In this document: positions 2,771-63,700 of the stretch, piece after piece
Layout: every line of letters starts with the position of its first letter
Position numbering within the stretch: position 1 is the stretch's first letter
NCBI GenBank assembly: GCA_964016885.1
Contig: OZ024745.1
Span: 56,544,001 to 56,608,000, forward strand
Length of the DNA stretch: 64,000 nt
Direction: 5' to 3'
Origin: Eledone cirrhosa
Taxonomy: Eukaryota
Notes under the pieces: model-generated
The model's database searches: none
The model's input: the letters and a program-made list of their open reading frames with translations, nothing else
What the model was told of the DNA's origin: nothing
Made by a program: the position numbers and the translations under genes

Positions 2771-2876
<106 letters not shown>

Positions 2877-5202: not shown

Positions 5203-7009
<1,807 letters not shown>

Positions 7010-13954: not shown

Positions 13955-14295
13955 ATAATAATAAATTTGAAGACTAAAATCCAAAGAGGGCTCGATAAGG
14001 AGAAATATATATAAAATATGTAAGAACCCTAGAGCAAATATTTATTAAAATAACAGATTAAAGTTTAAGAAAAGAAACGCTGCTTTCACTCTTAACGGGA
14101 TCTTCTGCAACTAAAATAATACATGTGTGAACGCAGAAGTAAATATTTCGAAAGACGTTGCAACCGAAGGAAAACAGGAAGACGATACTTTGGTTCGTGA
14201 AGACGTTCCCTGTCAATGCACGGAAAAAAAATGGAAGATAAAACGTCGTTATACCTTTATCCTTGGTTATGTCAACATTTATAAAACACACTTCG

Positions 14296-14357
14296 TATTT
14301 TATCTGATGATAGCGTACCAACATTTTTGGTACCATTGAAATATATATAATAGAATA
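14296..14357 (+). ncRNA. Minimal type I HHR in a Naiad-family pseudo-LTR
   Basis: uauuuuau-CUGAUGA-(guacca/ugguac)-GAAA-uauau-AUA-auagaaua; the ~45 nt downstream match 43826-43870 (reverse complement). Confidence 0.75.
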
Positions 14358-14503
14358 AATATGGTTTTATAAATATAGTTTCCATTTATTTAATATCATT
14401 GAATATTATACTCCAGAAAATCTATTGAGTGGTCTGAATCAGTTATAAACATTTATATTTGTTGAATTACCAACACATTGAATATCCTTTCAGCTTATAT
14501 ATA

Positions 14504-16609: not shown

Positions 16610-18571
16610 CACAGTGTAACATATTTTTGTTCCCCGGTTCTAAGTGTCATTTCATGGTTTGTTATATCCCATTATTATAAAAAAAACACTATTGTTTAAT
16701 CAGAAGTTTGTGTTTGTGGTCAGGAGTTTGATATTTCGAAATTTTCATATTTTTCAAGAAAAAATACTTTTTTTTTAATTTATCAGTACATATAATTAAA
16801 TCAAGAGATTTTATTACACAAGCTTATCAAAAGCAAACAAGTAAAAACAAATAACACTTATAAAGCAACATGTCAGAAATGACTGGATTTCCTGGATTTG
16901 CGGTTGTAGTCCAGGTCGCATTCCCGCAGTAGCCCCCATATATAGTCGCCCATCATTTGTTCATTGTAGTGGCGCTGGTACCTCCACTCTATCTCTTTCA
17001 CATCTTGGTGGAATCGTTCGCCTTGTTCTTCTGAGTAGGCGCCCATATTGTCCTTGAAATTTTCCAGGTGAGCGTCCAGCATATGGAGTTTAAGCGACAT
17101 CCCATGGCACCAAAAGCCTTTATCAGATCCTGCACCAGTTGCTGATAGTTTTCAGCTCTGTAGTTGCTCGGGAAGCCCTTAACAACTGCCTTGAAACAGT
17201 TCCATGCTGTTCTCTTAATCCCATTGAGCTTATTGGAGAACTCGGTAGACTCAAACACCTTCTTTATCTGATGTCCAACAAAAATTCCACCTTTGATTTT
17301 GGCCTCAGATAACTTGGGGAAGAACTCAAGAAGGTACTTAAAAGTGGCTGATTCTTGGTTGAGAGCCTTCACAACCTGCTTCATCAACCCAAACTTAATG
17401 TGCAGTGGCGGCATGAGCACAATCCTGGGATCAACCAGTGGCTCCCACATGTCGTTCCGGGTCCCAACTACAAATTCTGTTCGCTGCTCCCAGTTCTTTG
17501 TTTTGTAGTGGTCAGAAGGCTCTGCTGTCCCAAAGGCAGAGGAAGCATTGGAATTTGATAAAGCCTCCTTGGAGTCCAAGCAGGAAAGCCACCATCTTGA
17601 AGTCTCCAATGATTTCCCAATTGTACTGGTTGTATTGCAGAGCTTCCAATAGGACTTTCACACTGTATTAATCTTCCTTCAGGCAGACTGAATGAGCTAG
17701 TGGCAGTTTCGGGAACTTGTTTCCATTGTGGAGGAGGACAGCCTTCAAACTTGTGGTGGAGCCGTCTATAAATAGCCGCAACTCCTAGGACACAAACGGC
17801 AACCCAATAACGTCAAACAGTCCAGGCACGACATGGCAGAAGCAGAGGCCATTCCTAAGTGTGTAAAAGCCTGAGAAAGGTTCGTGTCGACTTCTCTGAC
17901 TTGTCACCTGCACTTCCTCCTTGACCAAGTTCCACTGCTTCATCCTGGAGACGAATAGCTCTGCATGGGACTTGGTGAGACCCATATCCCTGACCAAGTC
18001 ATTGACTTCTTTTGGGTTTGGAAAGTGAGGAACTTTTTCTGGTACCTCAGGCAGGTAATCCAAGTCGTCAGCATCCATCTTCCCCTCTTCATCAGAATAC
18101 TTGTCTTGGAAAATAAATTTGATATGCAATACAAAATAAATATTGGAAATTGAAATACATATTTAAATAATATAAAAGAATACTAATCATACTAATGAAA
18201 ATTCGTGCTTAAAACACAACTTACCCTTTATTCAGGTTGCAAAAATCCAGTATCAATAATTCTGTTTAATCCACTTTTTAACAATTTTATACTTTATTGC
18301 ACTTTTATAACTTTTTTTAGGTATTACTCTTTATTTTATAATTTTAATTTAACCTGAAACATATATAAACAAATCATTTAACATAAGCAAATTAAACTTA
18401 CATACAACGTAAAATCTAGCATACAAATAATTCTAGTGAATAGCTTAGAATTTTTACAAACCCCAACTTTTAACTGTTTAATAGCACTTTTTTATTTATT
18501 TGGGACCTAAGCAACACAAAAAAGTTATTACAAGCCAGGAACAGAGAAAAAATGTTTTTGTTTAAACGGTG
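16610..18571 (-). mobile_element. Chapaev3-like (CMC superfamily) DNA transposon with a disrupted transposase
   Basis: CAC..GTG termini with imperfect TIRs (..TGTTCC.GG.T); aaa/taa flanks. Motifs NDLVRDMGL..AELFVSRMKQWNL, RLFIDGS..SLKAVLLHNGN, PPLHIKFGLMKQ and MSLKLH..SEEQGERFHQD; frameshifts. Confidence 0.75.
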
Positions 18572-29123: not shown

Positions 29124-29140
29124 TATATACATATATATAT

Positions 29141-29194
29141 ATGTAAGTATGTATGTATACGTACATACATATATGTATACAGACGTACAGTAGC

Positions 29195-29237
<43 letters not shown>

Positions 29238-29381
29238 CAGGCACACATATATATATGCACGTATCAGTTTACCGAACATTTATTATAATGTTCGCTTTGT
29301 TCGTTTGGAAACAAACAAACAGCCTGATTTAGTAAGTGCCGTACTAAGAGTGAGAAATGAAATTTCGTTTCATTCTATTCC
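29141..29381. mobile_element. Short diverged insertion of the 466-bp monomer family with an internal inversion
   Basis: Starts atgtaagtatg like the array; after cagcctgattt it switches to agtaagtgcc..gaaatttcgtttcatt, matching the array's right end. Confidence 0.85.
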
Positions 29382-29493
<112 letters not shown>

Positions 29494-31727
29494 GAATTAT
29501 TCTCTTTTTGCCCGCACATAAATCTTAGCTCCTATTACTTTAGACCAATTAGCTAACGCTGTAGGACTTGCACCCCCCCCTCCTGTCAGGCCTACGTGAA
29601 ACCGCGCTACCCTGGTTCCTTGTTCCTCTGTAACCTTAACTACCCCTCAAGTGTATATGGGCTACTCTCATATTTCATTTCTCTTTTCCCCTCTCGCTTA
29701 CTTTTTTTCTTCCCCTCTTCCCTAGTTCATCTTATCACCACTAACCAATAACACATAGGATACAAACTGGTTAAGGCTTTTCACTATACCTACCACAGCT
29801 TCACCCTATGCAGGCACCTTCCCACACTAACCATAATGATACGGTTTATAAACGCACCCATTGTGCGCTAACTGATAGCACTGCCTCTTAGTCTGTCGAA
29901 AGCCCAACAAACTCCGCCGCATCTATAAAGTGGGTGGTTTGGGCAACCGGGGTCCGGATAGCCTTGACCCTAATATAGTATAGTGAAATAAGGGAGCAAA
30001 TCATGTGGGCTGGGTGCCCCAGAATCGATCAAGCCCCGGGGGAAGGGGTGGTTGGTCGCCGAGGGGTTTGAATCGAACAAATGACTTGCCTCAAGCGTCT
30101 CGTGGATATCTAATAAATCCGCCCTTTAAACGTGAATTGCCTCCCATACTTTTCATAAGCACACTACGACTTCCTGTGTTTATATTCTGACAACCGTTGT
30201 GTGTTACTAGCGAGAGGCTAACCTTTGGAATTTTGAAATTGCTGAATATGAATTGTGCTGCAAATATGATGAATGACAGAACCACACTCAAGGTAGTGTG
30301 CGGCAGTAGGTATTGACTTCCGGCCGACCCAGGAGGGGTCACACCCGACTGTGAATAGATTACAACCTCCGGATTCAGTAATCTACACGAAAACCACGTG
30401 GCGGATATGTAAATAACTTAGTTGTCATTGACAGTTTTAGCCGTGAGTTTTCTATATTTTCTACAGAAATGTGCACCCACTCTAATAAACCTGCTTATTA
30501 TTGTAACCACATCTGCTTTTCCTCCACTCTGCCATAGGTAATTCTGGAAGCGGAGTTCTCTGTACACACCTTCTGCTTGTGTGACGGAATAGTCATCACG
30601 ATTTACATTTGCAGCGGTATAATTGTATACGGTATGACAATTTGTTTCGATGCCGATTCGGCCTTTCAGTGAATTTCACTTGGGTAGTTGGGTTGACTTA
30701 CCGAACGTGAGGACTTTGGGAGATTGCAGTTATTGCGGACCTGTCGTATTTTCAATTTCCTCACTGGAGTGCCGGCTGTACTTATACCCCAGCTCTCTTC
30801 AACTCATCGTACTTTATTTTATCTTAGATTTAGGGGTTCATCGCTGACTGCCTATTCGGATGAATCCCCGGAGTATATGTTTTGGAAACATAGCGTTACT
30901 TCGCCTAACGACCGGAACTGGAACCAATGGATGTTGTACGTAAGATGCTGATAAGATACAGAGGATCGACCTATTACAAGGCGGTATAACCTTCCTACAG
31001 ACAATCCTACATGTAAAGCTGCACCAACTATGCTTCTCACAGACCCATGCTTGCAAGATCTTTTAATCTGTCTGTACATCCTGTATCTACGCTGCTTGTG
31101 CGTTGATGTATCTATGCCTTGATTTGTTTGTTTCTTTTGGTGTTTTCCTTCTGCGTTTTATATTGTTTTTTTATTTTTTTTATTGTTTTTGATCATGCTG
31201 AGTAACACCTTCACTCATTCCCTGCTATCCTCTCCCAACCTGCTTGTCATCTATTGCACCATGTAAATGATACATTTTTGATGTGATCTTTGATGTTATT
31301 TTTTATGCCATTTTTTATGACATTTTTTATGATATGTTATGACAGTATATGCGTCATGAATTGTGTCTGTTTCTATTTAGAGCTGACCTCAGGACCCCCC
31401 GTGCTGGCTCTTTAACCTTGTTCTGGTGACGCAGCTTGATGGGGCATGAAACTATTGATATACTCTAGTTTATAGGGTCTGATGATTCCTGCCTTAGGGT
31501 ACGGATGAAACACTGGGCACATTGATATATTTGTCAACAAAACTATATATATATATTGTTATACTTTGGGAGGGTCATGTTGCCAATAAGAAACACACGC
31601 ACCAGTTGCTTTCACTTCAATTTATTATATATTTATAAATTCATAAATTTACAAATCTACAAACTTATAAATTATAAATTTCTGGTTGGTTGGTTGGTTC
31701 CACAACCAGATAGTTGTTTATATATAT

Positions 31728-31772
31728 AGTCATAGTCCTTTCGTCACACACTCTGTGACCTCTTCAGTGACT
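31728..31772 (-). ncRNA. HHR motif (family B), left arm
   Basis: aguca-CUGAAGA-g-gucac/gugac-GAAA-gga-CUA-ugacu; one extra nucleotide before helix II. Confidence 0.6.
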
Positions 31773-31907
31773 GGGGATTCCTTTCTTCGTTTCTGTGCCT
31801 TTTCTTTCTTCTATCCTACGCCATTTTGTTTCTGTGTGACACACACAGAAACAAAATGGCGTAGGATAGAAGAAAGAAAAGGCACAGAAACGAAGAAAGG
31901 AATCCCC

Positions 31908-31952
31908 AGTCACTGAAGAGGTCACAGAGTGTGTGACGAAAGGACTATGACT
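31908..31952 (+). ncRNA. HHR motif (family B), right arm
   Basis: Mirror copy of 31728-31772. Confidence 0.6.
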
Positions 31953-32181
31953 ATATATATAAACAACTATCTGGTTGTGGAACCAACCAACCAACCAGAA
32001 ATTTATAATTTATAAGTTTGTAGATTTGTAAATTTATGAATTTATAAATATATAATAAATTGAAGTGAAAGCAACTGGTGCGTGTGTTTCTTATTGGCAA
32101 CATGACCCTCCCAAAGTATAACAATATCGGTTTCAACACACGATTTCAGATAAAGAATCTTGTTAAACAAATTCAGAAACG

Positions 32182-32244
<63 letters not shown>

Positions 32245-33801: not shown

Positions 33802-36872
<3,071 letters not shown>

Positions 36873-36874
<2 letters not shown>

Positions 36875-39800
36875 TAATTTTCATAAGGAAAGTATATACT
36901 TTCGAACGTTCAACTATCTGGCAGATGGGTAAACGGTGCTGATGATAGCTAACAAGCTTGAAACTAGTACATCGTTCCTGTGTCAGTGTTGAACAAAAAG
37001 GTGACGTGGTTGCCTTAACACCGTATGGCATAAATTCAGGCTGTTCAGTTTGTTTACAAACGAACAAAGCGACGTTAGCGCCGCTAAACTGATACGTGCA
37101 TATATGTATGTGTACCTGTATGCATATGTATGTATATATGTATATATATATATATATGTGCATGCTACTGTACGTCTGTATACATATATGTATGTACGTA
37201 TACATGCATACTTACATTTAAGTAAGTGCCATACTAAGAGTGAGAAATGAAATTTCGTTTTCATTTTGTTTCAATTTATCGTTTTCGGTATGCCTGACCG
37301 ATTTAACTCACTCAATATGCAAATTAGGCTGCTCAGCCGTTAATTTTCATAAGGAAAGTATATACTTTCGAACGTTCAACTATCTGGCAGATGGGTAAAC
37401 GGTGCTGATGATAGCTAACAAGCTTGAAACTAGTACATCGTTCCTGTGTCAGTGTTGAACAAAAAGGTGACGTGGTTGCCTTAACACCGTATGGCATAAA
37501 TTCAGGCTGTTCAGTTTGTTTACAAACGAACAAAGCGACGTTAGCGCCGCTAAACTGATACGTGCATATATGTATGTGTACCTGTATGCATATGTATGTA
37601 TATATGTATATATATATATATATGTGCATGCTACTGTACGTCTGTATACATATATGTATGTACGTATACATGCATACTTACATTTAAGTAAGTGCCATAC
37701 TAAGAGTGAGAAATGAAATTTCGTTTTCATTTTGTTTCAATTTATCGTTTTCGGTATGCCTGACCGATTTAACTCACTCAATATGCAAATTAGGCTGCTC
37801 AGCCGTTAATTTTCATAAGGAAAGTATATACTTTCGAACGTTCAACTATCTGGCAGATGGGTAAACGGTGCTGATGATAGCTAACAAGCTTGAAACTAGT
37901 ACATCGTTCCTGTGTCAGTGTTGAACAAAAAGGTGACGTGGTTGCCTTAACACCGTATGGCATAAATTCAGGCTGTTCAGTTTGTTTACAAACGAACAAA
38001 GCGACGTTAGCGCCGCTAAACTGATACGTGCATATATGTATGTGTACCTGTATGCATATGTATGTATATATGTATATATATATATATATGTGCATGCTAC
38101 TGTACGTCTGTATACATATATGTATGTACGTATACATGCATACTTACATTTAAGTAAGTGCCATACTAAGAGTGAGAAATGAAATTTCGTTTTCATTTTG
38201 TTTCAATTTATCGTTTTCGGTATGCCTGACCGATTTAACTCACTCAATATGCAAATTAGGCTGCTCAGCCGTTAATTTTCATAAGGAAAGTATATACTTT
38301 CGAACGTTCAACTATCTGGCAGATGGGTAAACGGTGCTGATGATAGCTAACAAGCTTGAAACTAGTACATCGTTCCTGTGTCAGTGTTGAACAAAAAGGT
38401 GACGTGGTTGCCTTAACACCGTATGGCATAAATTCAGGCTGTTCAGTTTGTTTACAAACGAACAAAGCGACGTTAGCGCCGCTAAACTGATACGTGCATA
38501 TATGTATGTGTACCTGTATGCATATGTATGTATATATGTATATATATATATATATGTGCATGCTACTGTACGTCTGTATACATATATGTATGTACGTATA
38601 CATGCATACTTACATTTAAGTAAGTGCCATACTAAGAGTGAGAAATGAAATTTCGTTTTCATTTTGTTTCAATTTATCGTTTTCGGTATGCCTGACCGAT
38701 TTAACTCACTCAATATGCAAATTAGGCTGCTCAGCCGTTAATTTTCATAAGGAAAGTATATACTTTCGAACGTTCAACTATCTGGCAGATGGGTAAACGG
38801 TGCTGATGATAGCTAACAAGCTTGAAACTAGTACATCGTTCCTGTGTCAGTGTTGAACAAAAAGGTGACGTGGTTGCCTTAACACCGTATGGCATAAATT
38901 CAGGCTGTTCAGTTTGTTTACAAACGAACAAAGCGACGTTAGCGCCGCTAAACTGATACGTGCATATATGTATGTGTACCTGTATGCATATGTATGTATA
39001 TATGTATATATATATATATATGTGCATGCTACTGTACGTCTGTATACATATATGTATGTACGTATACATGCATACTTACATTTAAGTAAGTGCCATACTA
39101 AGAGTGAGAAATGAAATTTCGTTTTCATTTTGTTTCAATTTATCGTTTTCGGTATGCCTGACCGATTTAACTCACTCAATATGCAAATTAGGCTGCTCAG
39201 CCGTTAATTTTCATAAGGAAAGTATATACTTTCGAACGTTCAACTATCTGGCAGATGGGTAAACGGTGCTGATGATAGCTAACAAGCTTGAAACTAGTAC
39301 ATCGTTCCTGTGTCAGTGTTGAACAAAAAGGTGACGTGGTTGCCTTAACACCGTATGGCATAAATTCAGGCTGTTCAGTTTGTTTACAAACGAACAAAGC
39401 GACGTTAGCGCCGCTAAACTGATACGTGCATATATGTATGTGTACCTGTATGCATATGTATGTATATATGTATATATATATATATATGTGCATGCTACTG
39501 TACGTCTGTATACATATATGTATGTACGTATACATGCATACTTACATTTAAGTAAGTGCCATACTAAGAGTGAGAAATGAAATTTCGTTTTCATTTTGTT
39601 TCAATTTATCGTTTTCGGTATGCCTGACCGATTTAACTCACTCAATATGCAAATTAGGCTGCTCAGCCGTTAATTTTCATAAGGAAAGTATATACTTTCG
39701 AACGTTCAACTATCTGGCAGATGGGTAAACGGTGCTGATGATAGCTAACAAGCTTGAAACTAGTACATCGTTCCTGTGTCAGTGTTGAACAAAAAGGTGA

Positions 39801-40537
39801 CGTGGTTGCCTTAACACCGTATGGCATAAATTCAGGCTGTTCAGTTTGTTTACAAACGAACAAAGCGACGTTAGCGCCGCTAAACTGATACGTGCATATA
39901 TGTATGTGTACCTGTATGCATATGTATGTATATATGTATATATATATATATATGTGCATGCTACTGTACGTCTGTATACATATATGTATGTACGTATACA
40001 TGCATACTTACATTTAAGTAAGTGCCATACTAAGAGTGAGAAATGAAATTTCGTTTTCATTTTGTTTCAATTTATCGTTTTCGGTATGCCTGACCGATTT
40101 AACTCACTCAATATGCAAATTAGGCTGCTCAGCCGTTAATTTTCATAAGGAAAGTATATACTTTCGAACGTTCAACTATCTGGCAGATGGGTAAACGGTG
40201 CTGATGATAGCTAACAAGCTTGAAACTAGTACATCGTTCCTGTGTCAGTGTTGAACAAAAAGGTGACGTGGTTGCCTTAACACCGTATGGCATAAATTCA
40301 GGCTGTTCAGTTTGTTTACAAACGAACAAAGCGACGTTAGCGCCGCTAAACTGATACGTGCATATATGTATGTGTACCTGTATGCATATGTATGTATATA
40401 TGTATATATATATATATATGTGCATGCTACTGTACGTCTGTATACATATATGTATGTACGTATACATGCATACTTACATTTAAGTAAGTGCCATACTAAG
40501 AGTGAGAAATGAAATTTCGTTTTCATTTTGTTTCAAT
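36873..40537 (+). repeat. Retrozyme-like tandem array, right (inverted) block: ~7.9 x 466 bp
   Basis: Reverse complement of the same monomer; GT microhomology at 36873-36874; ends in (TA)n. Confidence 0.95.
36932..36976 (+). ncRNA. Minimal type I HHR, first of 8 in the right block (also 37398, 37864, 38330, 38796, 39262, 39728, 40194)
   Basis: aacggtgCTGATGAtagctaacaagcttGAAACtaGTAcatcgtt; predicted cleavage after 36969. Confidence 0.85.
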
Positions 40538-40850
40538 ATATATATATATATATATATATATAGATATATATATATTCGTCAGGGCATTCTTCTATGAGTA
40601 AGCAACTCAGGAAACTGGGATAACTCCAATATAAATCCTGCGGCTCAGTAGTTACCGACGATGTTGATCTTTTCTTCTTTTCGGGTTATAGCTACTGTCG
40701 AGTGGGATTGGCTCAGTGCATAGACTTTCCTCACTTTAAAAAATATCTTCACACACAGGTATTGCACGATAGAATTAATTAATAATGGTATATCGTGCAA
40801 TGGCCATACTCGAGAACGAGGGGGCAGTCATCATATCATATATATATATA

Positions 40851-42314
<1,464 letters not shown>

Positions 42315-43755: not shown

Positions 43756-43825
<70 letters not shown>

Positions 43826-43827
<2 letters not shown>

Positions 43828-46785
43828 ATATTAAATAAATGGAAACTATATTTATAAAACCATATTTATTTCATTATACATATTTCAGGGATACCAAATT
43901 AAAATATGGTATGCCTTCATCAGACAAAATACAATATATAAACAGTTTTATAAATAATTTTGACGTACCCTATTAGATGCGACCATTATTTTTGGAAGCT
44001 GTCTGGATAGTGAGATGTTTATAATTATTTTACTAGTTATAGTGTTAAGCACAGTTAGAAAAAAGACGGAGAGAAAGAAAAATAACGGAGAGAGAGAAGG
44101 AGAGAGAAAAAGAAGGAGAGAGAGAAAAGGAATGTATGCAGAAAAAAAAGATATATATAAATAGATAGGAGGAAATGAAAGAAAGAAAAAAAAAGAAAGA
44201 AATAAGAAAGACAAAAGAAAGCAACAGAGAGATAATACTTCATCATACAGATAGAGAAACTCAAGAAAGAGGAAGTACTATATAGAGAGAGGAGGATATA
44301 GTGACGTCATGTCATATTAAGTTGAATTAACAATTCATATGAAATGAATAATAAAAATGTAAATATCAATATTCATGAATGAGACATAGATATATAATAT
44401 GAGAAAATAACATTGTTCAATAATGACCATATGTTTAGTTTAAAACCTTGAGGTCAATATACCAAAATCTGAGTTAAAACCTTAAAAAATACCCTATTTA
44501 TAAAAATATGGATACACATATGTATATATATAAACACTCATATGTGCGTCCAGAAAAAAGAGAAAATTATGTCTACTCCAGTCAATAATATAGACATACA
44601 AATGATTTCATTTGATCACTTCTATACATTTCTTGTGTTATAAACATTTCACAGTATATATACATAAAAACACGATTAATATTCATGTCCTCACATATAT
44701 GAACACCGTTCATGTATTTAATATTATGCATATCTGCAACACACATCAACATATACACACACAGCCATACATACACATACATATGTATAAATAAATATCT
44801 GCGTGAGTTTTCCAGCATCGTTATGCATATATACAGACATATATACGAACACATAAATAAACTCTATAAACCTTTTATATGCATGTTAATACACACAAAT
44901 GGCCTTTGTATAGAGATAATCAAATATCAATATATTAATACAGAAATATCAAAGCATTAAATATCTTTAACACACTATAGAGTATCTCAAGTTAAAATAA
45001 TATGTTTTATAAATTTATAGAAAACTATCCTACCTATATCTCAAACAAGATATTGCAAGGGTAGACATATGAAAGTTATTAGAAGCTATCAGAGTCAAAC
45101 AACAAATAAAAAAATAAAAATAATTTAAAAGATTTAGAAGACCCAGTGATTCTACGGATGCCCTTATATTTAGTATAGAAATTTATCTTACGCAAATTTT
45201 ATTTAATACATTGGGAGCATATACATTTTAGAGTAATTTATTATATCCTTGTTTATATTTAGGAAGAAAATTTAAAAAGAAAAAGGTGAAGGAATCTAAT
45301 GATTTATCGTCAGGTTTCATATATTAACTAAATTTTTTAATTAATTATACTACATTTTAAATTTATATTTATATTTAAACGTTGAGTTCAATCTATGTCT
45401 GCAGCAACTGAATAAATTGCTCCTTAAATTAAGGGAATTTTTGGACTTCAATATAAAGAATATTTCTTCTATACAAAGATCGCAACTCTCTGATGAGGAA
45501 TTAAAAGGAATTCCTTTTGAGACAATATTCCAAATCATCGAATATTTAACATTATCTCGTTTAAGGTGCCAGAGTAAGCTAGATAGCGAAGTTGAGGATT
45601 TTTTGTTTGGATCTGTGAAAGAATTCTTATGATTATTGAAGCGAAGTTTAAATTCTGTCGAGGTGGAACCAACATAGTTGAAAGAATTTAATTAAGTTTT
45701 AACATTACAATTGTACACTACATTTTTAGCTAAGCAGTTGTTATTTAACGGACAGTTAGATTTATTTCTACAGTTACAGTTATTTAATTGAATATTGTTT
45801 GGGTTATTATTGGTATTTTGGTTAGGTTTTAAATCCCTATTATTAATTCTGTTAATATTTTGTGCTAAATTTTTGGTGGACGAATAAGTTAATTTTATAG
45901 TGTGTCTATTAAAAATTGATTGATATTTATGTGTTCTAGGGAAGAGTTTGTCAAGAGCATTAAAGAATAGTTTAGCAATATGGGTTTTAATATTTAGTGA
46001 GAAAGAGGGGCAAACCATAATATATTTCTAGTACTATTTCTTTTTCGGCTTTTGGAATTATTGTAATGTTTTCTATTATAGTTGTTAAAGTTGTTACCGT
46101 AATTAAAATTGTTATTATTTTGGTTAGTTTGCTTATTATTATTGATGTATTTAATTTTATCTCTATATCCTGCTCTAGCTAACGCTTCATTGTAATACTG
46201 CGCTTTTTCATCAAAAATATTTTTATTAGATGAAATTCTTGAAATTCGTTCTTGAACAGAGTTCACTATAGTATTTTTAACAGATCTGGGGTGATTAGAG
46301 TTAAAATTGACATAATTCAAGTTCTCATTTAGTTTGTGAAATGGATAGTGAAGACATGTGTTGACATTTAGTGTTACATCCAGAAAATTGACTATTCTAT
46401 GGTTATTCTCTATTTCTATTTTTAGATTAAGGTAATTAAAAAATTGTATAATTTGTTTTCTTTTTCTATTTAGTTCACAGCTATTATTTTCAATAAGTAA
46501 AAGCATGTCATCACGATATAATCCTCCGGTTACACCTGGTATTTTTCTATGTAGCGAATTAATTATAAATAGGCCCACAAGGTCCGTTACCTGAGCTGAG
46601 TCAGATGATCCCATAGTTATGTCGAAATTATTATCTCTATCTGCCCTAGTCCATAGTTGGTTATTAAATTCTATCAATGTTTTCCTTACCGATAATATAA
46701 TGTGCATTTCATTGCTAGTTAGGTCGGTATGTTTAAATGCGTAATTTAGTGCCTTATTCAGTAGATTAGGAGTGATAGATGAATA
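43826..46785 (-). mobile_element. Naiad-type Penelope-like element, 5'-truncated, with a long 3' UTR ending in an HHR pseudo-LTR
   Basis: FDITMGSSDSAQVTDLVGL, LYRDD, NFLDVTL, SNHP, CNC..CPL..CL..VVY, YVGST..FKLRFNNH and CDLC..LNLRS..CRH; one frameshift (~46010) and one TAA (45692). Confidence 0.85.
43867..43931 (-). ncRNA. Minimal type I HHR of the Naiad pseudo-LTR
   Basis: uauuuugu-CUGAUGA-aggcauacca..ugguaucccu-GAAA-uaugu-AUA-augaaaua. Confidence 0.75.
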
Positions 46786-46794
46786 GTAGTAGTA

Positions 46795-46869
<75 letters not shown>

Positions 46870-46871
<2 letters not shown>

Positions 46872-48592
46872 GGAAGTGAGTTTTATTGTAGCACAATAAA
46901 GCAATGCAAATATCGGATAAGTAGCACTCTACAGTTTGTAGGACTGGAGTATAAATAATATAAGATCAAAAGATAGTTAAAAGAGTTCCAAGTATTTTAT
47001 TATGCGCATTACAAAAACAAATATCATCAGGGATGATATCTGGGTTTTCATCAGATAAAATAGGGATACATGATATGAAGCTTAAAAAAGAACTAACACG
47101 GCACTCTCAGTACTCATATGGTCTTTGAAATACAAAATATTAACTATAACATCTCTTGGAGAAAAGTTTGTTCTGCCTCTCTCTGCTTGAATGCCTCCCT
47201 ATCCCGAACATGTAATCTTTGCCTATCTGAAAAATTTACCATTATATCTAATATCAATTATATAATAAATAGACGCACTGATTTATTCTCTCTCTGCTTG
47301 CATAAACTCCACAGAACATTCCATAAAGTATACAGCTAATATCTAATACCTTACTAGTTTAAAATCCTTTTTCTCAAAGGCTTATATATCTTTTAAAAAT
47401 ATACCCATTTTTCTACCTTATTTCAATATTATTTATTATATATTATATAATACAAGTTACTCATTCTATATCATTCCTCTTTATCACTTTCCTTTCTTCC
47501 TCTTTTCTTTCTAATTTCTAACCTCTAATCTGTACTTTTTCTTCCTAACTACTTCTCAATTCTTATTATTACTCCCCACAACATTATCCATTCTTCCATC
47601 TTTCTTCATATCATTGGCCATAAAAAATATTAATGTTTTTAATACATTATAGTATTACCTTTAACAGTCCTTCGTAAACATTTTTTTTACGTTAGATTTT
47701 TCTTCCTTAAATTCCTTATCTCTTCCTTTCATGCTCGTTTGACTTTTACATATTACAATACATAAAAACAAACTTAAACCCTAACTAATTTCTTTTAATA
47801 TATTATATTATTACCATTAGAAAATATTTCGTAAACATATATATTTTTTTATGTTAGATATTTTCTTCCTTAAACATTCTTTTCTTCTTTGCTTTCTGCG
47901 TACTATTTACGTACATATATTACGCACACATATTACATTACATAAAAACAAATTTAAACACTAACTAATTCCTCTAAATTCATAACTCATTCATTCTTTT
48001 ACTTCTTTTCACATTATATCCTTAATCACATTAATATATTTATTTTAATAATACATATTAATAATTTCTTTCCCTCGCACATATTATTAAACCCTTCAAT
48101 ATACAAACCTTAATTTAATATTATTCTTAATCCCCTTTTCTCCTCATGCATAAACCTCATCAACTTTTAATTTCAAATTCTTTTAAATTATCTATTTCTT
48201 CCAACGCCTTTTTAACCTCTCTCTGTGAGACAATATATATTTTTTTCTCAGTTGTAAAAGCTATCTCTCCCCCTCTATCACCCATCTCTCCTCCTCTCTC
48301 ATCCTTCCTTCTTATACTCCTCCCCCACCATTCTTTACTCTAAACTCCTCCTCTTCCTTACCCTTTCCATCCCCCCCTCTCACTTGTTCCCAATCTTATT
48401 CATCAATCTTAAATTATTTTTCATATGTTGATTTAAAACTTCACTATTCACAAGTGTTTTTTAAGCTTCATATCATGTATCCCTATTTTATCTGATGAAA
48501 ACGCAGATATCATCCCATGATGATATTTGTTTTTGAAATGCGCATAATAAAATACTTGGAACTCTTTTAACCATCTTTTGATCTTATATTAT
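46870..48592 (+). mobile_element. Second Naiad-type PLE 3' fragment with an inverted pseudo-LTR
   Basis: ORF 47118-47339 has ISW..CNLCLSEK..INRRTDLFSLCLH; about 46957-47089 is inverted at about 48457-48590; the left HHR (46993-47062, -) has GAAA mutated to GUAA. Confidence 0.8.
48484..48554 (+). ncRNA. Minimal type I HHR
   Basis: tattttat-CTGATGA-(long stem cagatatcatc/gatgatatttg)-GAAA-tgcgc-ATA-ataaaata; 8-bp helix I; palindromic tgcgca. Confidence 0.85.
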
Positions 48593-53659: not shown

Positions 53660-56600
53660 TTTTCTTTATTAACCACAAGGGTTCACATAAAGTAGACATT
53701 AAGGACAGTACAGGACAATACAGGACGGTACAAATGGGCATTTCTGCGTGTAAAAAAAACAGAGGTTGAAATAAAATAACAAAGAAAAATTCCCCAATAG
53801 GGGGGAGACTTCCAAGGGACATTTGTGGAGAAAGCCCATTAAAAGACCACAGTGGCCCTGACCACCAGGGCAAGTGCCCTCTCCCAGTTTTCCACCTTTA
53901 ATTTACAGACACATACTCAGAGAAGGCCCATTCATTCGGGCCATACTTGCTTCTCTCACCCATCTTTCAACAAAATGCTGGGAAGAGAGCACTTCCCTCT
54001 CTACCCTGATTTTCCTTTTCAAATGAAATTTGAAAAAGTTAATCAGGGCATCACCGAAGAGGTAAGTACTCGTCTTCAGCCCTTTCAAACGTGTCCACCA
54101 TACTATCTCTTTCGCCATGGCCACCAGACAGATAAAAACTGCCTGCCCTTCCCAGCTAAAGGAAGGGGGCGGGGCAATCCTCACGATGGACTCAGCTGAT
54201 AGCTGGATCCGTCCTACACGTGACAGCAGGTGTTCGACATAAACCCACAAGTCAGCAATGCTCGGACACTGGACGAGTGCGTGCAGGACGGTTTCGTCGC
54301 CCTGCGCGCATCTCGGACATGCCCAGCTGACGGCACCTCCATGCCTGTAGAGTTTAACCCGAACTGGCAAAGCTCCTCGGTAGCACTGCCAGGCCAGGGA
54401 TTTCTGGAAGTTGTCCATAGGCCCCGGCCCGAAAGTCCTTCCGAAGAGATTGGCTAGTTGAATTTCGTCGACGCCTAGAGTTTCTCCAAGTACGTCGTCG
54501 CTCTTCCCCTCCACTAATCCCCTATAGAACGCCAAGGTGGAGTTTCCACCGATCACATTGCCCGATTGGTCGAGGGCTGTGAGCGCCTGAAGACATTCCA
54601 GTCTCCAAGCGCTCCCTCTCGGTCTTCGCTTGACCCAGGACTGCAGCTCCGTCAAGGAGACGAGCTGGGGAAAAACGTGTCTAGCAAACGGCGACCACAC
54701 CTGATCACCGTCGAGGAAGAGGTGGAGATGTCGTAGCCTGAGCGCGTGTCTGCGCATCATCAGCCACGGCATGCCCAGCCCTCCACGTAGCGGGTGTTGA
54801 CAGCAGATGGACCGCCTGACCATCGGAGCGCGTCCCTTCCACAAGAAGCGAAAGAGCAAACGCTCCAGCGCAGTCAGGCGGGGCTTAGGACAAGGTACGA
54901 CGGTCAGGCGGTAGTAGATGACGGACGCGATGTACGCGTTAGCCACCTCCGCTCGACCTTTCAGGGATAGCTTCCTCTCGGCCCATTTCTGGGTGAGAGA
55001 AGCTACCCTGCTCGTCACCTCGTCCCAGTTTGTGTCCGTCTGGAGGTCTGGACCGAACCAGACCCCTAGCAATTTAACCGGTCCGTCCGTCCAGCGCCCG
55101 ACGACGCTGTTGGATGGCATGGACCTGCCTCTCCAGGTGCCGAGCTGCAGGCCCACTGACTTTTCCTGGTTGATCATTGCTCCTGTCACCGCTTCGTATT
55201 CTCTTAGTGTAGTGCCGATCGCCTCGATGTGTTTGGCGTTCGAGACCACTACGGTGACATCGTCGGCATATGCTGACACGGATCTTCCGCATCCTAGTTC
55301 GCGCGGGACCCCCTTCAACGTCTCCAGTTTGTGCAGTAATGGCTCGAGAGTCAATACGTACAATAGGGACGAGAGGGGACATCATTGGCGGACCGAGCAG
55401 CATGATGTTGACCGGTTCCGAAAGGTGACCGTTCACTCTCACTACAGAGCAGATGTCGCTGTGCATGGCAGCTATCCAGCCTCTGAAGACAGGTCCAAAG
55501 CCAGCCGCCCTCAGGACTGCCGCTAGGTAACGATGGTCGACCCTATCGAAGGCTTTCGACTGATCTAAATTGATCAAAGACCCACCCGTTCCAGGTTCCC
55601 TAGTTACCCTCTCTACGATGTATCGCATGAGGTGGAGGTTGTCGTGGATGGATCTGTCGGGAATGTCGCATGTCTGTGCCTCTCCCACCAGACCACCAAC
55701 GACAAGCGCCAACCTCTTTGCTAGCACCTTGGCCAAAATCTTGAACTCTGTGTTTAGCAGAGTTATGGGCCGGAAATTATCTATGTTATCCCTCTTGTTC
55801 GGATCCTTTCTCAGCAGCGCCACCGCTCCTCGGCTCACAGAGCTGGGAATTCTCCCGTTCTGTTGCCAGTTGCAGTAGACGTCCGCCAAGAGGCCTCCGA
55901 ACAAGTCTGGCATTTGTACGTAAAGTTCATAGGGCAGACCATCCACACCAGGCGATTTACCCCTTGTGCAACTAGTCATTGCATCCCGTACTTCAGCGGT
56001 TGTTATCGGTTTTTCGCAACACTCCGCCTCAGTGGCCGAAAGCCGCGGCAGTCCGTCGAGGTAGACACTAAAGTCAATCCCCCGATCCGGTCCGCCACTG
56101 CCCCCGAACAGTTGAGCGAAGTGTCGCTGAAAAGCTTCACACATTTGCCCGGGATCGAGTAGCATGCGCCCGTGGTGGTCCACCAAAGACCGGATCGTGG
56201 CTTTGTTGCCACGACGCGCCTCCGCCACTCGGGCCCATTGAACGGCTTTCGTCCCCTCGTGTCTGAGAGCACGCACCCTAGCTCTGACGACGCAGCCTTC
56301 GTGCTTTGCATTGAAGAATTGGTCAAGGGCCAATTTCGCCGCAAGTACGTCGGTCGCGATGCCTTTGCTAAGCGCCTCATCTAATTTTCTAACTAATTCT
56401 CCCTCTGCTCTATTTTTCTCTATTGCTAAAGTCTTACTAAACCTAATGAACTCTATTCTAATTGCTCTTTTCAGAGCAAACCACCAATTGTTGTTGACGA
56501 TGGCGCCCGTCAACGCCCGCTTAACTAGTTCTCTAATCCGGTCTCTGTAGGCCTTGCGCGCTGGTAAGGACGCGTTTAGCTTCCAGTAGCCGGGTCCTCG

Positions 56601-57750
56601 TCTATGAAGCCTATCTAAGTCAAGCACACAGATCACGAATGTGTGGTCCGTGTAGCTGACTATCTTGAATTGTGGACAGCCTATGCTAGACCTATCTATT
56701 TCCCTACAAAATACTCTATCTAGATATGATCTGGATGACCCTATGCGATTTGTCCAAGTCCACATTGGTACATTCGGGAAATCCATTCGGTACCTGTCAG
56801 ACAGTTCAAAACGTCTGAGCAGGTTGGTGAGACTCTTGCACCCTCCTTCCCTATCCACTAATCCCACACAATCCCAGCGTGCATCCACTAACACTAAAGA
56901 GCGGGACGTTCCAAGAAAGGTCTCTAGACGCCGGAAGAAATCAGGCCGCCCTGCTCCTGTCGGGGCATAGACGGCCACTAACCTGAAAGCTTGCCCGTCT
57001 CCGCTGGTCACGTCCAGCACCACCAACTTACCTTCTGGGTCCAGGAAGATGGCCCGTATGGCAAGATCCAAACTTCTCCGAAAAAGCACAGCAACTCTTC
57101 CCCCCGATCCCGGACGGCTGGGAGATGCGTACACATCGTAGCCGCCGAAGATCGGTGCGAAAGCCTGTGCTTCGGAGATTCTGGTCTCGCTGATGGCCAC
57201 TACATCTATGTTTAGTGACCTGAGGTCGTTGAGCAGGTGGCCCTGCTTCCATGACGACCCCAAGCCACGCGCATTTATGCTGCCTATTCTGAGTGAGGTC
57301 ATGTTGAAAAGGAGTGGAAAAGATGGGAAAGACCACTTACCTCACTTCTCGTAGGGGAAGGACGGTTTTTCGATCCTTTTCACTGCTTGTGGCCTCCTCA
57401 GGAAGGATGTCCTTATAAATCCTCCTGGAGAGTGCTTGTCGGAAGTCTCCGATGTCTTTGGGGATTTCTTTTTTTAGTGTCATGTACGTTTTCTGTGTGA
57501 TGCGAGTGATTTGTATGTGTGGAGGTGCTGTGAATTTTGGGGTTGTTGTGTAGTCTTTTTCTGTGATGCTGGTGTTGTGTTGGATGTAGTGTAATAATTG
57601 CTTGTTGTTCAAATTTAATGCTGTGTAGTGTGTATCGTTTTGGTTGTTTTGTTTTGTTTGCGTTTGTTGTGGGTTTGTTTCTGTTTCGCATTTTGGTGAC
57701 TTTTGTGGTGTAGGTGATGGTGGTGTTGGGGTTAATGATGGTGATCGTGT
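53660..57750 (-). mobile_element. Tx1-clade non-LTR retrotransposon: ORF1 3' part, ORF2 and 3' UTR
   Basis: ORF2 domains as below; AATAAA at 53670-53665 followed by an (ATT)n tail (53602-53658). Confidence 0.9.
53903..57302 (-). pseudogene. Tx1 ORF2 (APE endonuclease, RT, zf-RVT) with one frameshift near 55400
   Basis: SINARGL..ISETR, VYAPT, LDRVF, TDH, WKLN, KSPGVDGL, FRPITLLN, DQSKAFDRVDH, AYADD and CPRC..ETVLHALVQC; the QGCPLSP motif is disrupted at the frameshift. Confidence 0.9.
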
Positions 57751-59394: not shown

Positions 59395-60775
59395 TGTAAA
59401 AAAACCTGCAGTCCCCGTCACCATCACCACCACAAGCACCACCGCCAACAACAACCACACCTCCACCATCATCACCAAAAACACCAACAATGCAAACAAA
59501 ACAAAACACACACACCAAACAAAAACAAGAAGAAAACAGCAACAAAATCCCCCCTCCCCCCAAAAAAGTACGCAGCCATAAACATGACAAATAAAGAACT
59601 CATACAATATATAAAGCAGTACACAGAAATCACAGAAAAAAACTACTACACCCAACCAACACCAAGAATTCTACCGACAAACATAAGCATCATTGATATC
59701 AAAATAGAACAGTACAAACATTTAAAACAAAAATTCCCCAACGTAGTTGGAGACTTCAGAGGGTCAGTTACCAAGAGGATATACACTGACATCCTCTTGG
59801 AAACCCCCATGACCAGTCAAAGAGACGGTTCTACTGTCCCTTCACCACACCACGATCAAGGTAAGTGACCCTGTCTCACTTGCCCCGTTACTCATCCAAC
59901 ATGGCCGTACTTAGAATAGGCAGTATAAATGCACGTGGCCTAAGGTCATCTTGGAAGCAGGGTCATCTGCTCAATGACCTCAGGTCACTAAACATAGATG
60001 TGGTGGCCATCAGCGAGACCAGAATCTCCGAAGCACGAGCCTCGCACCGATCTTCGGCGGCTACGATGTATACGCATCTCCCAGCCATCCAGGATCGGGG
60101 GGAGGGGTTGCCCTCCTTTTTTCGGAGAGGCTTGGATCTTGCCATACGGGCCATCTTCCTGGACTCAGAAGGTAAGTCGGTCGTGCTGGACGTGATCGGC
60201 AGCGAAGGCAATGCCTTCAGGCTAGTAGCCGTCTACGCCCCAACTGGGGCAGGACGGCCAGATTTCTTCAGACGTCTAGAGACCTTTCTTGGAACGTCCC
60301 GCTCTTTAGTGTTAGTGGGCGACTGGAACGGTATCTTGGATGCACGCTGGGATTGTGTGGGGCTAGTGGATAGGGGAGGAGGGTGCAAGAGCCTCACCAA
60401 CTGCTCAGACGTTTTGAACTGTCTGACAGGTATCGACTTTATCACCCGAATGTGCCAATGTGGACATGGACAAACCCCATCGGGTCATCCAGATCCTATC
60501 TCGATAGGGTATTCTGCAGAGAACTAGATAATGCTAGTATAAGTTGTCCACAATTTAAAATAGTCGACTACACAGACCACAATTTTGTGATCTGTGAGAT
60601 CGACATAGACAGACTTCATAGACAAGGACCCGGTTACTGGAAGCTGAACGCGTCTTTCCCGGCGCGTAAAGCCTACAGAGCCCGGATTATCGTATTAGTT
60701 AAGTGGGCGCTGACGGGTTCGGTCGTGAACAATAGGTGGTGGTTCGCCCTGAAAAGGGCAATTAGAGTAGAGTCC
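59395..60775 (+). mobile_element. Tx1 copy: ORF1 end plus ORF2 endonuclease, 3'-interrupted
   Basis: MAVLRIGSINARGL at 59901; homology to the - strand copy stops after ALKRAIRVE. Confidence 0.85.
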
Positions 60776-63700
60776 ACTGGATGTGGAGGCAGGACACAAG
60801 AGTTACCATCACAACCGCTCCCTTCTGTGATAGAGACAGTATCATCTCAAAACGACATCACCGCCACCACCACCGCCACCACCACCACAACAACAACACA
60901 GAACAACAACGACAGCCTCAATGTAAACACTGTTGGCGGTGCCAACAGCAACATCAAACAAAACAACAACAACAACACCAACAACAACAACACCAATAAG
61001 GACAACACCAACAACAAGAGCAATGGAGGCGCCACATTTCCAGCAGCCGCAGCGAAAACAAAGCACTTATTCAATGTAGATATTAGCGATAAGGAACAAC
61101 AATTGGCCCAGGCGTGGAGGTTAATTAAACGAGAGAAGTCCTGGGCAAACCTAACCATCCCGGACGAGGCAATAGCAGCCATGCAAAGGAGGACGGTGTA
61201 CTTTCGATGCATTTCAGTGCAGACACGCAAAGTGGAACTCGCCAGCCAAGTAGAAGTCGAGGCTCCTTTAAAGTGCACCGGAAGTGACATCGAGTACAAA
61301 GAAAAGTACCAAGCAATTCGATACCATCTCGGTACTGTTCAAAACCGAGGCCCTTGCTTTTATGCACTCTGTGACCCGCTGCAGAACGGAACGCATTATA
61401 ATACACCCGTTCTACACGGGAAAAAGGACAGTAAAACTCAGCATTCTCAGGATCCCACCAGGAATCAACATATGGTGGCTCCTGGGATGCGTAATCGAGG
61501 AGGGGACAGACACTTCCCTCCTAGATATCGAAAGGACACAGAGAGAAGACAGGTCCGGAATGGATTTGAAGATTCTTTTCCAAATGAAACCAGAGGACAT
61601 CAACAGCGTCCCGCGTTTTGCTGCCTGCAGGACGGGACAACAATCCAATTAATCACTGAGGGAAGAGGCCGCACTGCTTCATCTGCGGGGAAGCAACGAA
61701 TCTGCAAGCCTTCTGCCCTAAACTCAAAGATGCAGGGGATCGCAAACCTCGTTTTGCTGCCAAAGCCAGTGTTAGCAGGGAAAGCTGCACCACCACCACC
61801 AAAAACAACACCAACAATGACATGGGTAACCCGACCAACATCAAAAACACCCGGACCACCACCAGTACCGAAACCAATCCAAGGGGAAAACGAGGAAAGC
61901 TCTCCCACCAACCCTACCCCTCCAATTATACACGTAGACGAAACCATAAATGCACACACAGACTCAGATACACTCACAGCCACAGACCATTCCAACAGTG
62001 AAGATGAAGGAAAACCCAAAAGGGCCAAAAAAAAACAAAAGAGAAAATTCACAAAAAGCCCCAACAAAACACAAAAGCATACACAGCAAAATACAGACAC
62101 CACTAACACAAACACTTCCCCAATAACATCAACACCATCCCCACAATCCCCGAGACGCAAACAACCTAAACAAACACAAGTACAAATAAACATACAGACA
62201 CCTGAAATTGCAGACACCACCTCCAACAACAAACACAGACACCCTAAACAACAACACCAAAACCATCAACACCACAGTCACTAAAAGGAAAACAAATAAA
62301 CCCACACCAACAAAACATTAAAACTTCGTGCTTGTCAGAAGGGCCAATAATAAATTGACGGCCCTCTTAGCACGAAGCGAGGACATTCAAACAGAGGGGG
62401 CGCTCTTTGAATTGGTCACATTTTGCGTGCCAGAAGATTTGTTTCTGGTGCGTATGTCGCTCGATTCCTACAAATAAATTCGAGATAGCTTTCCTCAAGA
62501 CGTGGGAACATCGAACGTGAAACCCACATCGAGACTTTTAAAGGGGTTCCCAAAAGAAACCCCACCAACCATGGAGATTCGAACCACCCGACCTTCACAA
62601 GATCCAGGGAGCTAAGTAAACCTTCCCTCTCTCTTTTAGCTTACCAACATGGCCATATTAAGAGTAGGAAATTTAAATTTTCGCGGCCTGGAAGCAAGGT
62701 CGCCCTTCAACGACCTCAGTTCACTGGAAATGGATGTGACTGCCGTCAACGAGACCAGAATTTCTGACACGCGCGCAATAGCCCCTATTTTCGACGACTA
62801 TCAGATCTTCGCATCTGTTAGCAGGCCGGGAATGGGATGTGGGGTGGCAGTGCTGTTTAGGATAGGCCTGGATCTCGAGGTAAGGTCGATCTTCTGGGAC
62901 CCGGACGGTAAGTTGGTGGTCTTGGATGTGAGCAGTAGCGAAGGATGTGCCTTTAGACTGCTGGCTGTCTACGCCCCTCCTGTGGCCGGACGACCGGACT
63001 TCTTTAGGCGCCTGGAAACCTTTCTGGGTACGTCTCGCCCTTTACGGTTAGCGGGGGACAGGAACGGCATCTTAGACGCACGCTGGGATTGTGTGGGAGT
63101 AGCTGATAGGAGCGGTGGGTGCAAAAGCCTCAAGCACCTAATCAGCCAGTTCCAACTGTCTGACAGGTATCGACTAGATTTCCCCAATGCGCCAGTGTGG
63201 ACCAACCGCATAGGGTCATTTAGATCGTATATAGACAGGATCTTCATTAGGAAATAGATAGAAATAATGTAGGCTGCTCAGTTTTTAAAACGGTCGCCTA
63301 TTCAGAGAAGAAATTTGTGATCTGTGTAGTCGACCTAGATAAAACGCGTAGGTTGGAACCGGGTTGCTAGAAGCTGAACATGTCATTTCCGGCACATAAG
63401 GCTCACAGGGACCGAGTCAACAATTTAGTTAAACAAAAGTTGACAGGGTAGTCGCCGTTTATTAGACGAGCCTTTCCGCAGCTCATTTCTTTGACTGAGC
63501 TGCAGTCCTGGGTCAAGAAGAGACCGAGACTGGGTGACTGGCACCGCAATGTTGCCAGGAACTCACTGCCCTCTACCAAGCGGGCAATGCGATCAGTGGA
63601 ACTTCCACTCTCGAGTTCTACAGAGGATTAGTGGTTGGCAAGCGCGATGACGCACTCGGAGAAGCTTTGGGCCTCGACGAAGTCGAACTGACCAGTCTTT

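What the first reader, a model, noticed from the sequence alone, without database searches (positions are those of the whole stretch)
36857..36890. Array geometry suggests bidirectional rolling-circle reverse transcription
Seen: 6 units plus 18 bp on the - strand meet ~7.9 units on the + strand at a GT microhomology. The units look identical even in their internal TA runs, both outer ends lie in (TA)n, and the two ends are ~49 nt apart on the monomer. Inference: both ends of one break primed a processive RT that went round a circular RNA 6 and ~8 times, giving a 6.5-kb palindrome in one recent event. Unequal crossing-over does not readily explain the inversion or the ends shared with 29141-29381.
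Basis: partly seen in the sequence, partly recalled or inferred. Interest (0 to 1): 0.85.

Follow-up and report, generated by a model that had tools for sequence, protein, structure and literature searches.

The report
Two-armed hammerhead retrozyme insertion
This is one copy of a common ribozyme-carrying jumping element whose insertions look as if both sides of a DNA cut were used to copy a small RNA over and over, which bears on the unsettled question of how such tandem repeats are born.

Summary
The geometry is real. A minus arm 34060-36874 (6x466+19) meets a plus arm 36873-40537 (7x466+403) at a GT overlap, with no mismatch among units. The outer ends lie 55 nt apart on the monomer, not 49. 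The unit carries a type I hammerhead; 10,185 exact motif copies occur genome-wide. It is a non-LTR retrozyme with Penelope-like (PLE) architecture. The form is the family's rule: outer ends fall at two fixed sites, A and B, one per arm (49 of 57 junction loci; 1 A+A; 7 unresolved). Inner ends are scattered, microhomology-rich and not enriched at the ribozyme cut. Both arms share array-specific haplotypes (11 of 12 versus 13 of 132 swapped). Seven of 51 B arms stop at site A, a twin-priming mark. Inverted PLE ends with a tail, two-site priming of both strands in vitro, and circle-templated retrozyme cDNA are each published or proposed. I found no paper joining them. Against: some long arrays show DNA-level duplication; no RNA, spanning read, empty allele or partner RT was found. 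Two-sided priming about 0.9; circular template about 0.6.

The parts
34060..36874 (-). Arm primed at site A: 6 units + 19 nt of the 466-nt retrozyme monomer, sense strand reading outward; outer end m348, inner end m330
36873..40537 (+). Arm primed at site B: 7 units + 403 nt; inner end m1, outer end m403
36873..36874 (.). Head-to-head (5' to 5') junction with 2-nt GT microhomology
36933..36975 (+). Type I hammerhead of the first plus unit (one per unit, 14 in all): core at 36939, predicted cut after 36969, 2-bp palindromic helix III
   Evidence: (Rfam HH9 18.5 bits, E 0.024, below gathering score 52)
37099..37211 (+). Internal TA/TG-rich tract of the monomer (m227-339), used as a fast haplotype marker
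40483..40537 (+). 55-nt 'tail' between priming sites A (m348) and B (m403), terminal only on the B arm; contains a predicted hairpin
33902..34059 (.). Left (TA)n target flank, preceded by (AC)n at 33804-33902
40538..40575 (.). Right (TA)n target flank
29138..29382 (.). Older copy of the same family (85-89%): short A arm on the minus strand plus a tail-only B arm on the plus strand, in (TA)n

Best explanation
A non-autonomous hammerhead retrozyme moved by a Penelope-like reverse transcriptase/GIY-YIG protein acting in trans. The protein nicks both strands of a (TA)n target. One 3' end primes at internal site A of the RNA and the other at site B, 55 nt further 3'. Each cDNA runs until it drops off at a roughly random point, often after more than one unit length. 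The template is one unit long and is read round repeatedly, most simply as the circular RNA made by hammerhead cleavage and ligation. The two cDNA ends then join through 1-5 nt of microhomology and are filled in. Some arrays are later lengthened at the DNA level. SHOWN here: geometry, fixed A and B ends and their pairing, junction statistics, haplotype sharing. FROM PAPERS: both-strand nicking and two-site internal priming by a PLE protein; circular RNAs of other retrozymes. INFERRED: that this RNA is expressed, cleaves and circularises; that a PLE protein is the enzyme; that all 14 units here arose at insertion.
For: Pairing: 49 of 57 curated junction loci are A+B by script; by eye L042 drops out and L026 and L062 come in. 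Among 38 distinct loci picked by their A end: 33 A+B, 0 A+A, 2 unresolved, 3 with no second arm found (read). A sister family 63-77% alike shows the same form (13 of 13 loci with both ends clear), and one of its loci has a 15-16 bp target duplication (L201). Junction overlap of 1 nt or more in 39 of 56 (random 46%; p 3e-4), 2 nt or more in 28 of 56 (random 18%; p 6e-8). Inner ends fit a uniform spread (KS p 0.69); 3 of 112 lie at the ribozyme cut (2.6 expected); 0 indels there in 208 units. Arm lengths fit an exponential (58 arms, mean 814 nt, p 0.12); 51 of 98 arms exceed one unit. Rare substitutions: 185 single-unit, 21 fixed in all covering units (11 across both arms), 6 partial. Of 39 arrays with 3 or more units, 35 have no partially shared core substitution, and none of the partial ones recurs in a second array; 12 fixed haplotypes. 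Modal TA tract identical between arms in 11 of 12 versus 13 of 132 swapped pairs. Arm mismatch at polymorphic sites in 2 of 35 versus 666 of 1,167 swapped. Tail-only B arms 7 of 51 (p 3e-5); 3 of 28 further inner ends fall at site A (p 0.035). PMC11167929: a PLE protein cleaves and extends both strands, prefers AT-rich DNA, and starts at two internal sites that bound the tail. PMC7229834 proposes tandem cDNA from primed circles.
Against: DNA-level duplication is visible: 4 of 39 arrays by script (L039, L066, L141, L157), L067 by eye and L029. L141 has six identical variant units in a block but ends in N. A 30-unit and a 14-unit sister-family arm are full of recurrent variants. Expansion can therefore be fast, and uniform units do not prove one event. 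L027 may be a true A+A. This locus carries the commonest core haplotype (27 of 39 arrays), so it has no private marker. The site-A pile-up is only p 0.056 if every 12-nt window is allowed, and a hairpin or bound protein there would stall RT on any template. In PMC11167929 ribozyme mutants did not affect insertion and unprocessed RNA was the main substrate in vitro. The one autonomous PLE family examined has a different ribozyme and tail, so no partner is identified. Shared haplotypes show a shared source, not a shared molecule.
Confidence: 0.6

Rival explanations
1. The same two-sided PLE priming, but the template is a long uncleaved linear transcript of a young, still uniform source array.
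For: It also predicts seamless units and scattered inner ends. Unprocessed RNA was the main substrate in vitro (PMC11167929). Long uniform arrays exist to serve as sources (L152, L080).
Against: Source units gather single-unit changes (104 in 226 units), which should pass to daughters as shared partial variants; none recurs between arrays. Many arrays instead have 1-3 private changes fixed in every unit (L090, L143 and L156, L144, L145, L153, L068), which needs a one-unit bottleneck. Arm length could only shrink from source to daughter (inference).
Confidence: 0.18
2. A short two-armed PLE-type insertion, with each arm then expanded by unequal exchange or replication slippage and kept uniform by conversion between the arms. 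Local amplification is the route put forward in bioRxiv 10.64898/2026.07.22.740005.
For: Block and periodic variants in L066, L067, L141, L157 and in long sister-family arms. In L066 a linked variant block occurs in both arms.
Against: Independent growth of two arms should let the TA tract drift apart, yet it matches in 11 of 12 loci with multi-unit arms on both sides, while 8 modal tracts exist among those loci. This locus shows 0 changes in 14 units. Partial variants are rare (6 against 21 fixed).
Confidence: 0.13
3. Fold-back self-priming on an antisense template makes the inversion (proposed for PLEs in PMC3846280).
For: 3 of 51 tabulated junctions are exactly symmetric at natural palindromes (L069, L082, L089). 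The window holds a near-perfect PLE palindrome at 31553-32127.
Against: 48 of 51 junctions, this one included (m330 against m1), join unrelated phases; arm lengths are uncorrelated (rho -0.10); each outer end sits at its own fixed site.
Confidence: 0.05
4. Assembly artefact (read fold-back, or a polished or collapsed repeat).
For: No read spanning this junction was seen; perfect identity could reflect consensus polishing.
Against: The flanks differ and are single-copy. The arms start at different phases. Other arrays in the assembly keep unit-level differences. Contigs of a public run show other inversion-type joints in this element, and another run shows a B end running into TA (these runs may be the assembly's own sample or study).
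Confidence: 0.04

Closest known systems
Non-LTR retrozymes of animals (PMC7229834; bioRxiv 10.64898/2026.07.22.740005)
   Same: Non-coding tandem unit of a few hundred bp with one type I hammerhead per unit, short palindromic helix III, thousands of copies, co-occurrence with PLEs. Copying of a primed circle into tandem cDNA is proposed in PMC7229834 (Discussion).
   Different: In the parts read, neither paper describes two head-to-head arms, fixed A and B ends or (TA)n targeting. The unit (466 nt) is longer than the 170-400 nt of PMC7229834 but within the 51-972 bp range of the preprint.
Penelope-like elements with inverted pseudo-LTR and tail (PMC3846280, PMC8557442)
   Same: An inverted 5'-truncated copy head-to-head with the main copy; a tail at one end only; microsatellite (TA)n targets that hide target duplications.
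   Different: No ORF; tail 55 nt rather than 30-40; both arms can be many units long; the tail is on exactly one arm in nearly every two-arm insertion.
Poseidon element PAc in vitro (PMC11167929)
   Same: Both target strands cut and extended; two internal RT start sites bounding the tail; AT-rich target.
   Different: That work used linear RNA, saw no start-site difference between strands, and found ribozyme cleavage dispensable. Here the genome shows one site per strand and multi-unit products.
L1 twin priming and dual priming (PMC2837659)
   Same: Both nicked strands prime; inverted pieces; one cDNA can stop where the other began.
   Different: L1 primes at the poly(A) tail and at a variable internal site and gives at most one copy of the RNA. 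Here both sites are fixed and most B arms run past site A.

Membership tests
Non-LTR retrozyme | Tandem non-coding unit of a few hundred bp | tested here: met
   466-nt period; the only ORFs of 100 aa or more are 114-118 aa stop-to-stop frames running through the TA tract
Non-LTR retrozyme | Type I hammerhead motif in each unit | tested here: met
   Core and three helices in 14 of 14 units; 94% of cells paired and 5 of 13 pairs with two-sided changes across 11 hand-picked related copies. Rfam match is weak: HH9, E 0.024, below gathering. The pair at the base of helix II is U-U in this family.
Non-LTR retrozyme | Self-cleavage of the transcript | not testable with these tools
   Needs in vitro transcription of monomer and dimer
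Non-LTR retrozyme | Expressed as linear and circular RNA | not testable with these tools
   No RNA run was available to lay
Non-LTR retrozyme | Many dispersed copies | tested here: met
   10,185 exact 39-mer matches, control 0; 1,075 exact B ends and 4,734 read-through copies of the young type
Non-autonomous Penelope-like element | Inverted head-to-head copy with tail at one end | tested here: met
Non-autonomous Penelope-like element | AT-rich or microsatellite target; target duplication where visible | tested here: met
   Ends run into (TA)n in nearly all printed cases. A 15-16 bp duplication was seen only once, in the sister family (L201).
Non-autonomous Penelope-like element | Sequence kinship with the pseudo-LTR of an autonomous PLE in the genome | tested here: inconclusive
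   30 loci of one Neptune-like family carry a different ribozyme and tail; other PLE families were not searched
L1-type twin priming | Inner end of one arm coincides with the priming site of the other | tested here: inconclusive
   True in 7 of 51 B arms and at 29138-29382; not at this locus
Ordinary satellite grown by unequal exchange | Variants shared by blocks of units | tested here: not met
   0 variants at this locus; met in 4 of 39 other arrays and in long sister-family arms

The most novel reading that the evidence does not exclude
A PLE protein dimer sits on the A-tail-B element of a single circular retrozyme RNA, gives site A to one target strand and site B to the other, and the two reverse transcriptases chase each other round the same circle by strand displacement, 55 nt apart. 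Tail-only arms record failure of the trailing enzyme to displace the leading cDNA. Arms ending near whole laps record stalls on return to the start. Every two-arm insertion would then be a record of double rolling-circle reverse transcription into a chromosome, and this would be the normal PLE integration mode, visible here because the template is short and circular.
Probability: 0.35. Interest if true: 0.78.

Novelty: new variant of a known kind. Interest (0 to 1): 0.57.

Why it matters
How PLE insertions acquire their tandem and inverted ends is described as unresolved in PMC8557442. The origin of retrozyme arrays is proposed one way (copying of circles, PMC7229834) and another (local amplification, bioRxiv 10.64898/2026.07.22.740005). 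This family gives over a thousand young insertions with two fixed start sites and a fast internal marker, so the models can be separated by census and by a simple in vitro assay. If right, it shows a natural RT writing multi-kilobase concatemers from a 466-nt circle into both strands of a cut, and a one-step source of long inverted repeats.

Tried and rejected
DNA similarity search of the own genome returned nothing because common words are skipped; exact patterns were used instead. The first Rfam scan was swamped by microRNA models on TA repeats and palindromes. Single-strand folding of the ribozyme region was not better than shuffles (z -1.3). Sequencing runs: no RNA holder listed. Laying four runs on 36750-37100: two gave no reads and no listed contig spans the whole stretch, which proves nothing about this junction. 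No empty allele in the assembly: each flank 31-mer occurs once. Partner search: one Neptune-like family has another ribozyme; the related ribozyme in L084 led to a sister retrozyme, not an ORF. Linear monomers joined by template jumps are disfavoured: no indels and no pile-up at the cut site. The 42-of-46 TA-flank count is not used, because the end finder required TA. Dropped rows: L103 (near-copy of L102); spurious junction calls inside the TA tract (curated to 56-57 by eye); L042, L043, L051, L068 left out as multi-insertion loci; older flank copies trimmed from L068 and L080. Earlier scan findings: none returned.

Full report
OBSERVATION. Tandem Repeats Finder gives two 466-bp arrays, 34060-36874 (6.0 copies) and 36873-40541 (7.9 copies). 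Direct comparison shows the first is the reverse complement of the second, with no mismatch in any unit, TA tracts included. With m1 = 36873, the plus arm runs m1 to m403 after seven full units. The minus arm starts at m330 and ends at m348 after six full units. The arms overlap by GT, and both outer ends run into (TA)n. The outer ends are 55 nt apart. The copy at 29138-29382 (85-89%) has the same outer ends. Each flank is single-copy in the 3.0-Gb assembly.

WHAT THE UNIT IS. Each unit has a type I hammerhead reading outward on both arms: core at m67, predicted cut after m97, 6-bp helix I, 4-bp helix II and a 2-bp palindromic helix III. Rfam gives only a weak HH9 match (18.5 bits, E 0.024, gathering score 52). 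Across 11 hand-picked related copies 94% of cells pair, and 5 of 13 pairs change on both sides; slid controls pair at 21-45%. The sequences are related, so this is support rather than a probability. A short palindromic helix III is the usual metazoan form and is thought to work as a dimer (PMC4209133, passages). The exact 39-mer occurs 10,185 times. The young type has 1,075 exact B ends and 4,734 read-through copies.

THE FORM IS A FAMILY RULE. I examined the clusters among the first 100 listed motif matches, 39 loci picked by their A end from 291, and 20 picked from the B-end and read-through lists, all on contig C1. Outer ends fall at A (m348) or B (m403-407) and run into (TA)n. Of 57 curated junction loci the script called 49 A+B, 1 A+A (L027) and left 7 unresolved. 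By eye L042 drops out and L026 and L062 become A+B. Among 38 distinct A-picked loci, 33 are A+B, none A+A, 2 unresolved and 3 have no second arm found. One-armed copies also occur among the later loci (L145, L147, L148). A sister retrozyme (63-77% alike, 4,060 motif matches) shows A+B in 13 of 13 loci with both ends clear, out of 17 looked at. One of these has a 15-16 bp target duplication (L201). Two other PLE-type families in the genome, one with long RT/GIY-YIG frames, also have two fixed ends each, with one A+A case (L131).

THE INNER JUNCTION. Overlap of 1 nt or more occurs in 39 of 56 junctions (46% at random, p 3e-4) and 2 nt or more in 28 of 56 (18%, p 6e-8). Fifteen have inserted or unaligned bases. 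The 112 inner ends fit a uniform spread (p 0.69); 3 lie at m93-103 against 2.6 expected; 208 units crossing the cut site show no indel there. So the template had no fixed 5' end at the ribozyme cut and no ragged joins. The lengths of 58 arms from A-picked loci fit an exponential (mean 814 nt, p 0.12). The two arms are uncorrelated (rho -0.10), and 51 of 98 arms exceed one unit (this set still holds the L042 miscall). This locus is in the upper tail. Seven of 51 B arms are tail-only and end at site A (p 3e-5; 1 of 49 A arms is that short). If any window is allowed, the pooled pile-up has p 0.056. In 28 further ends, 3 fall in the same window (p 0.035). This is what twin priming on one RNA leaves (PMC2837659, passages), though a pause site would too.

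HAPLOTYPES. Core divergence is 0.52% within an arm, 0.47% between the arms of one insertion and 3.4% between insertions. Rare substitutions are 185 single-unit, 21 fixed in all covering units (11 across both arms) and 6 partial. Among 39 arrays with 3 or more near-full units there are 104 single-unit changes, 12 fixed haplotypes and 4 arrays with a partial change, none recurring in another array. The modal TA tract matches between arms in 11 of 12 loci against 13 of 132 swapped pairs. Young arm pairs disagree in 2 of 35 against 666 of 1,167 swapped. Inference: each insertion passes through one unit's haplotype, which is then repeated in both arms. A circle does this directly. A linear multimer should pass on ordered unit differences, and independent later growth should let the arms drift apart.

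RESULTS AGAINST. L039, L066, L141 and L157, L067 and L029 carry block or periodic variants. L141 has six identical variant units, although it ends in N. Sister-family arms of 30 and 14 units are full of recurrent variants. DNA-level duplication therefore acts on long arrays and can be quick. This locus has the commonest haplotype (27 of 39), so its uniformity dates it as young but does not fix the mechanism. A shared haplotype shows a shared source, not one molecule. In vitro a PLE did not need ribozyme cleavage (PMC11167929). No partner RT was found. Expression, spanning reads and an empty site remain untested.

MECHANISM. Most likely a PLE protein in trans nicks both strands of (TA)n, primes at A on one strand and B on the other, and copies a unit-length, probably circular RNA for a random distance. 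The cDNA ends then join by microhomology. My odds: two-sided A/B priming 0.9; multi-unit arms made at insertion 0.8; circular template about 0.6 overall; the same molecule for both arms about 0.35 overall.

COMPARISON WITH PRINT. Inverted head-to-head pseudo-LTRs with a 30-40 nt tail at one end, and (TA)n targets, are described for PLEs (PMC3846280 and PMC8557442, passages). The first favours self-priming on an antisense template; the second calls the mechanism undefined. PMC11167929 (parts 1-2 of 4) shows both-strand cutting and extension and two internal start sites bounding the tail. PMC7229834 (passages and Discussion) shows retrozyme circles in other animals and proposes tandem cDNA from primed circles. 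The preprint 10.64898/2026.07.22.740005 (parts 1-3 of 5) ties retrozymes to PLE pseudo-LTRs and leans on local amplification. Six searches listed no paper on two-armed A+B retrozyme arrays or on haplotype evidence for lap-wise copying; I judged most hits from listings only. The library lacks most subscription papers, and I did not see supplements (Figure S9 of PMC7229834, Figures S1-S2 of PMC11167929, the preprint's files), which may bear on this. The labels Neptune-like and Poseidon-like for PLE fragments in the window are recalled from motif resemblance; Pfam confirmed only a GIY-YIG domain in one fragment.

VERDICT. The new content is the strict one-site-per-strand pairing and the genomic evidence for a one-unit template. 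New variant of a known kind; interest 0.57.

Noticed in passing
L084:2700-4000; G000:C1:5738327-5752443: Sister hammerhead retrozyme family (63-77% alike, period 461-470, 4,060 motif matches) with the same A+B form; one arm has about 30 units with higher-order variant patterns.
   Followed up: partly
window 31553-32184: Perfect 286-bp inverted arms of another PLE-type family, with a tail of about 58 nt on one arm; abundant in fetched loci.
   Followed up: partly
window 45350-46965 (-), 43818-43971, 14295-14484, 48492: PLE RT/endonuclease fragment (recalled as Neptune-like) of a family with open frames up to 816 aa, its own hammerhead, and two fixed ends about 89 nt apart.
   Followed up: partly
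window 5965-6987 (-), 7338-7685 (+), 40724-41467 (+): Fragments of a second PLE family; GIY-YIG domain confirmed for the last. It starts just right of the array.
   Followed up: no
L155:2260-2335: The junction carries a threefold stutter of a 12-nt stretch at site A, like reiterative slippage by the RT.
   Followed up: no
L067:1200-1411 and 5030-5060: Both flanks read the same 27 nt outward (inverted), and the left flank is a PLE RT fragment; unexplained.
   Followed up: no
L034:1150-1300: A retrozyme arm is joined directly to a PLE RT fragment: a template switch or a later insertion.
   Followed up: no
L102 and L103: Near-identical insertions about 750 kb apart on C1: segmental duplication or uncollapsed haplotype.
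   Followed up: no
window 36873-37338 in public runs: 20 of 24 listed runs hold words of the monomer, under 14 coded organism labels and one wastewater metagenome; only four were laid, two with no reads.
   Followed up: partly
window 53903-57341 (-), 59865-63257 (+), 2746-3816 (+), 3901-4503 (-), 16998-18162 (-): Long frames resembling LINE endonuclease/RT and DNA-transposase remnants (by recall).
   Followed up: no
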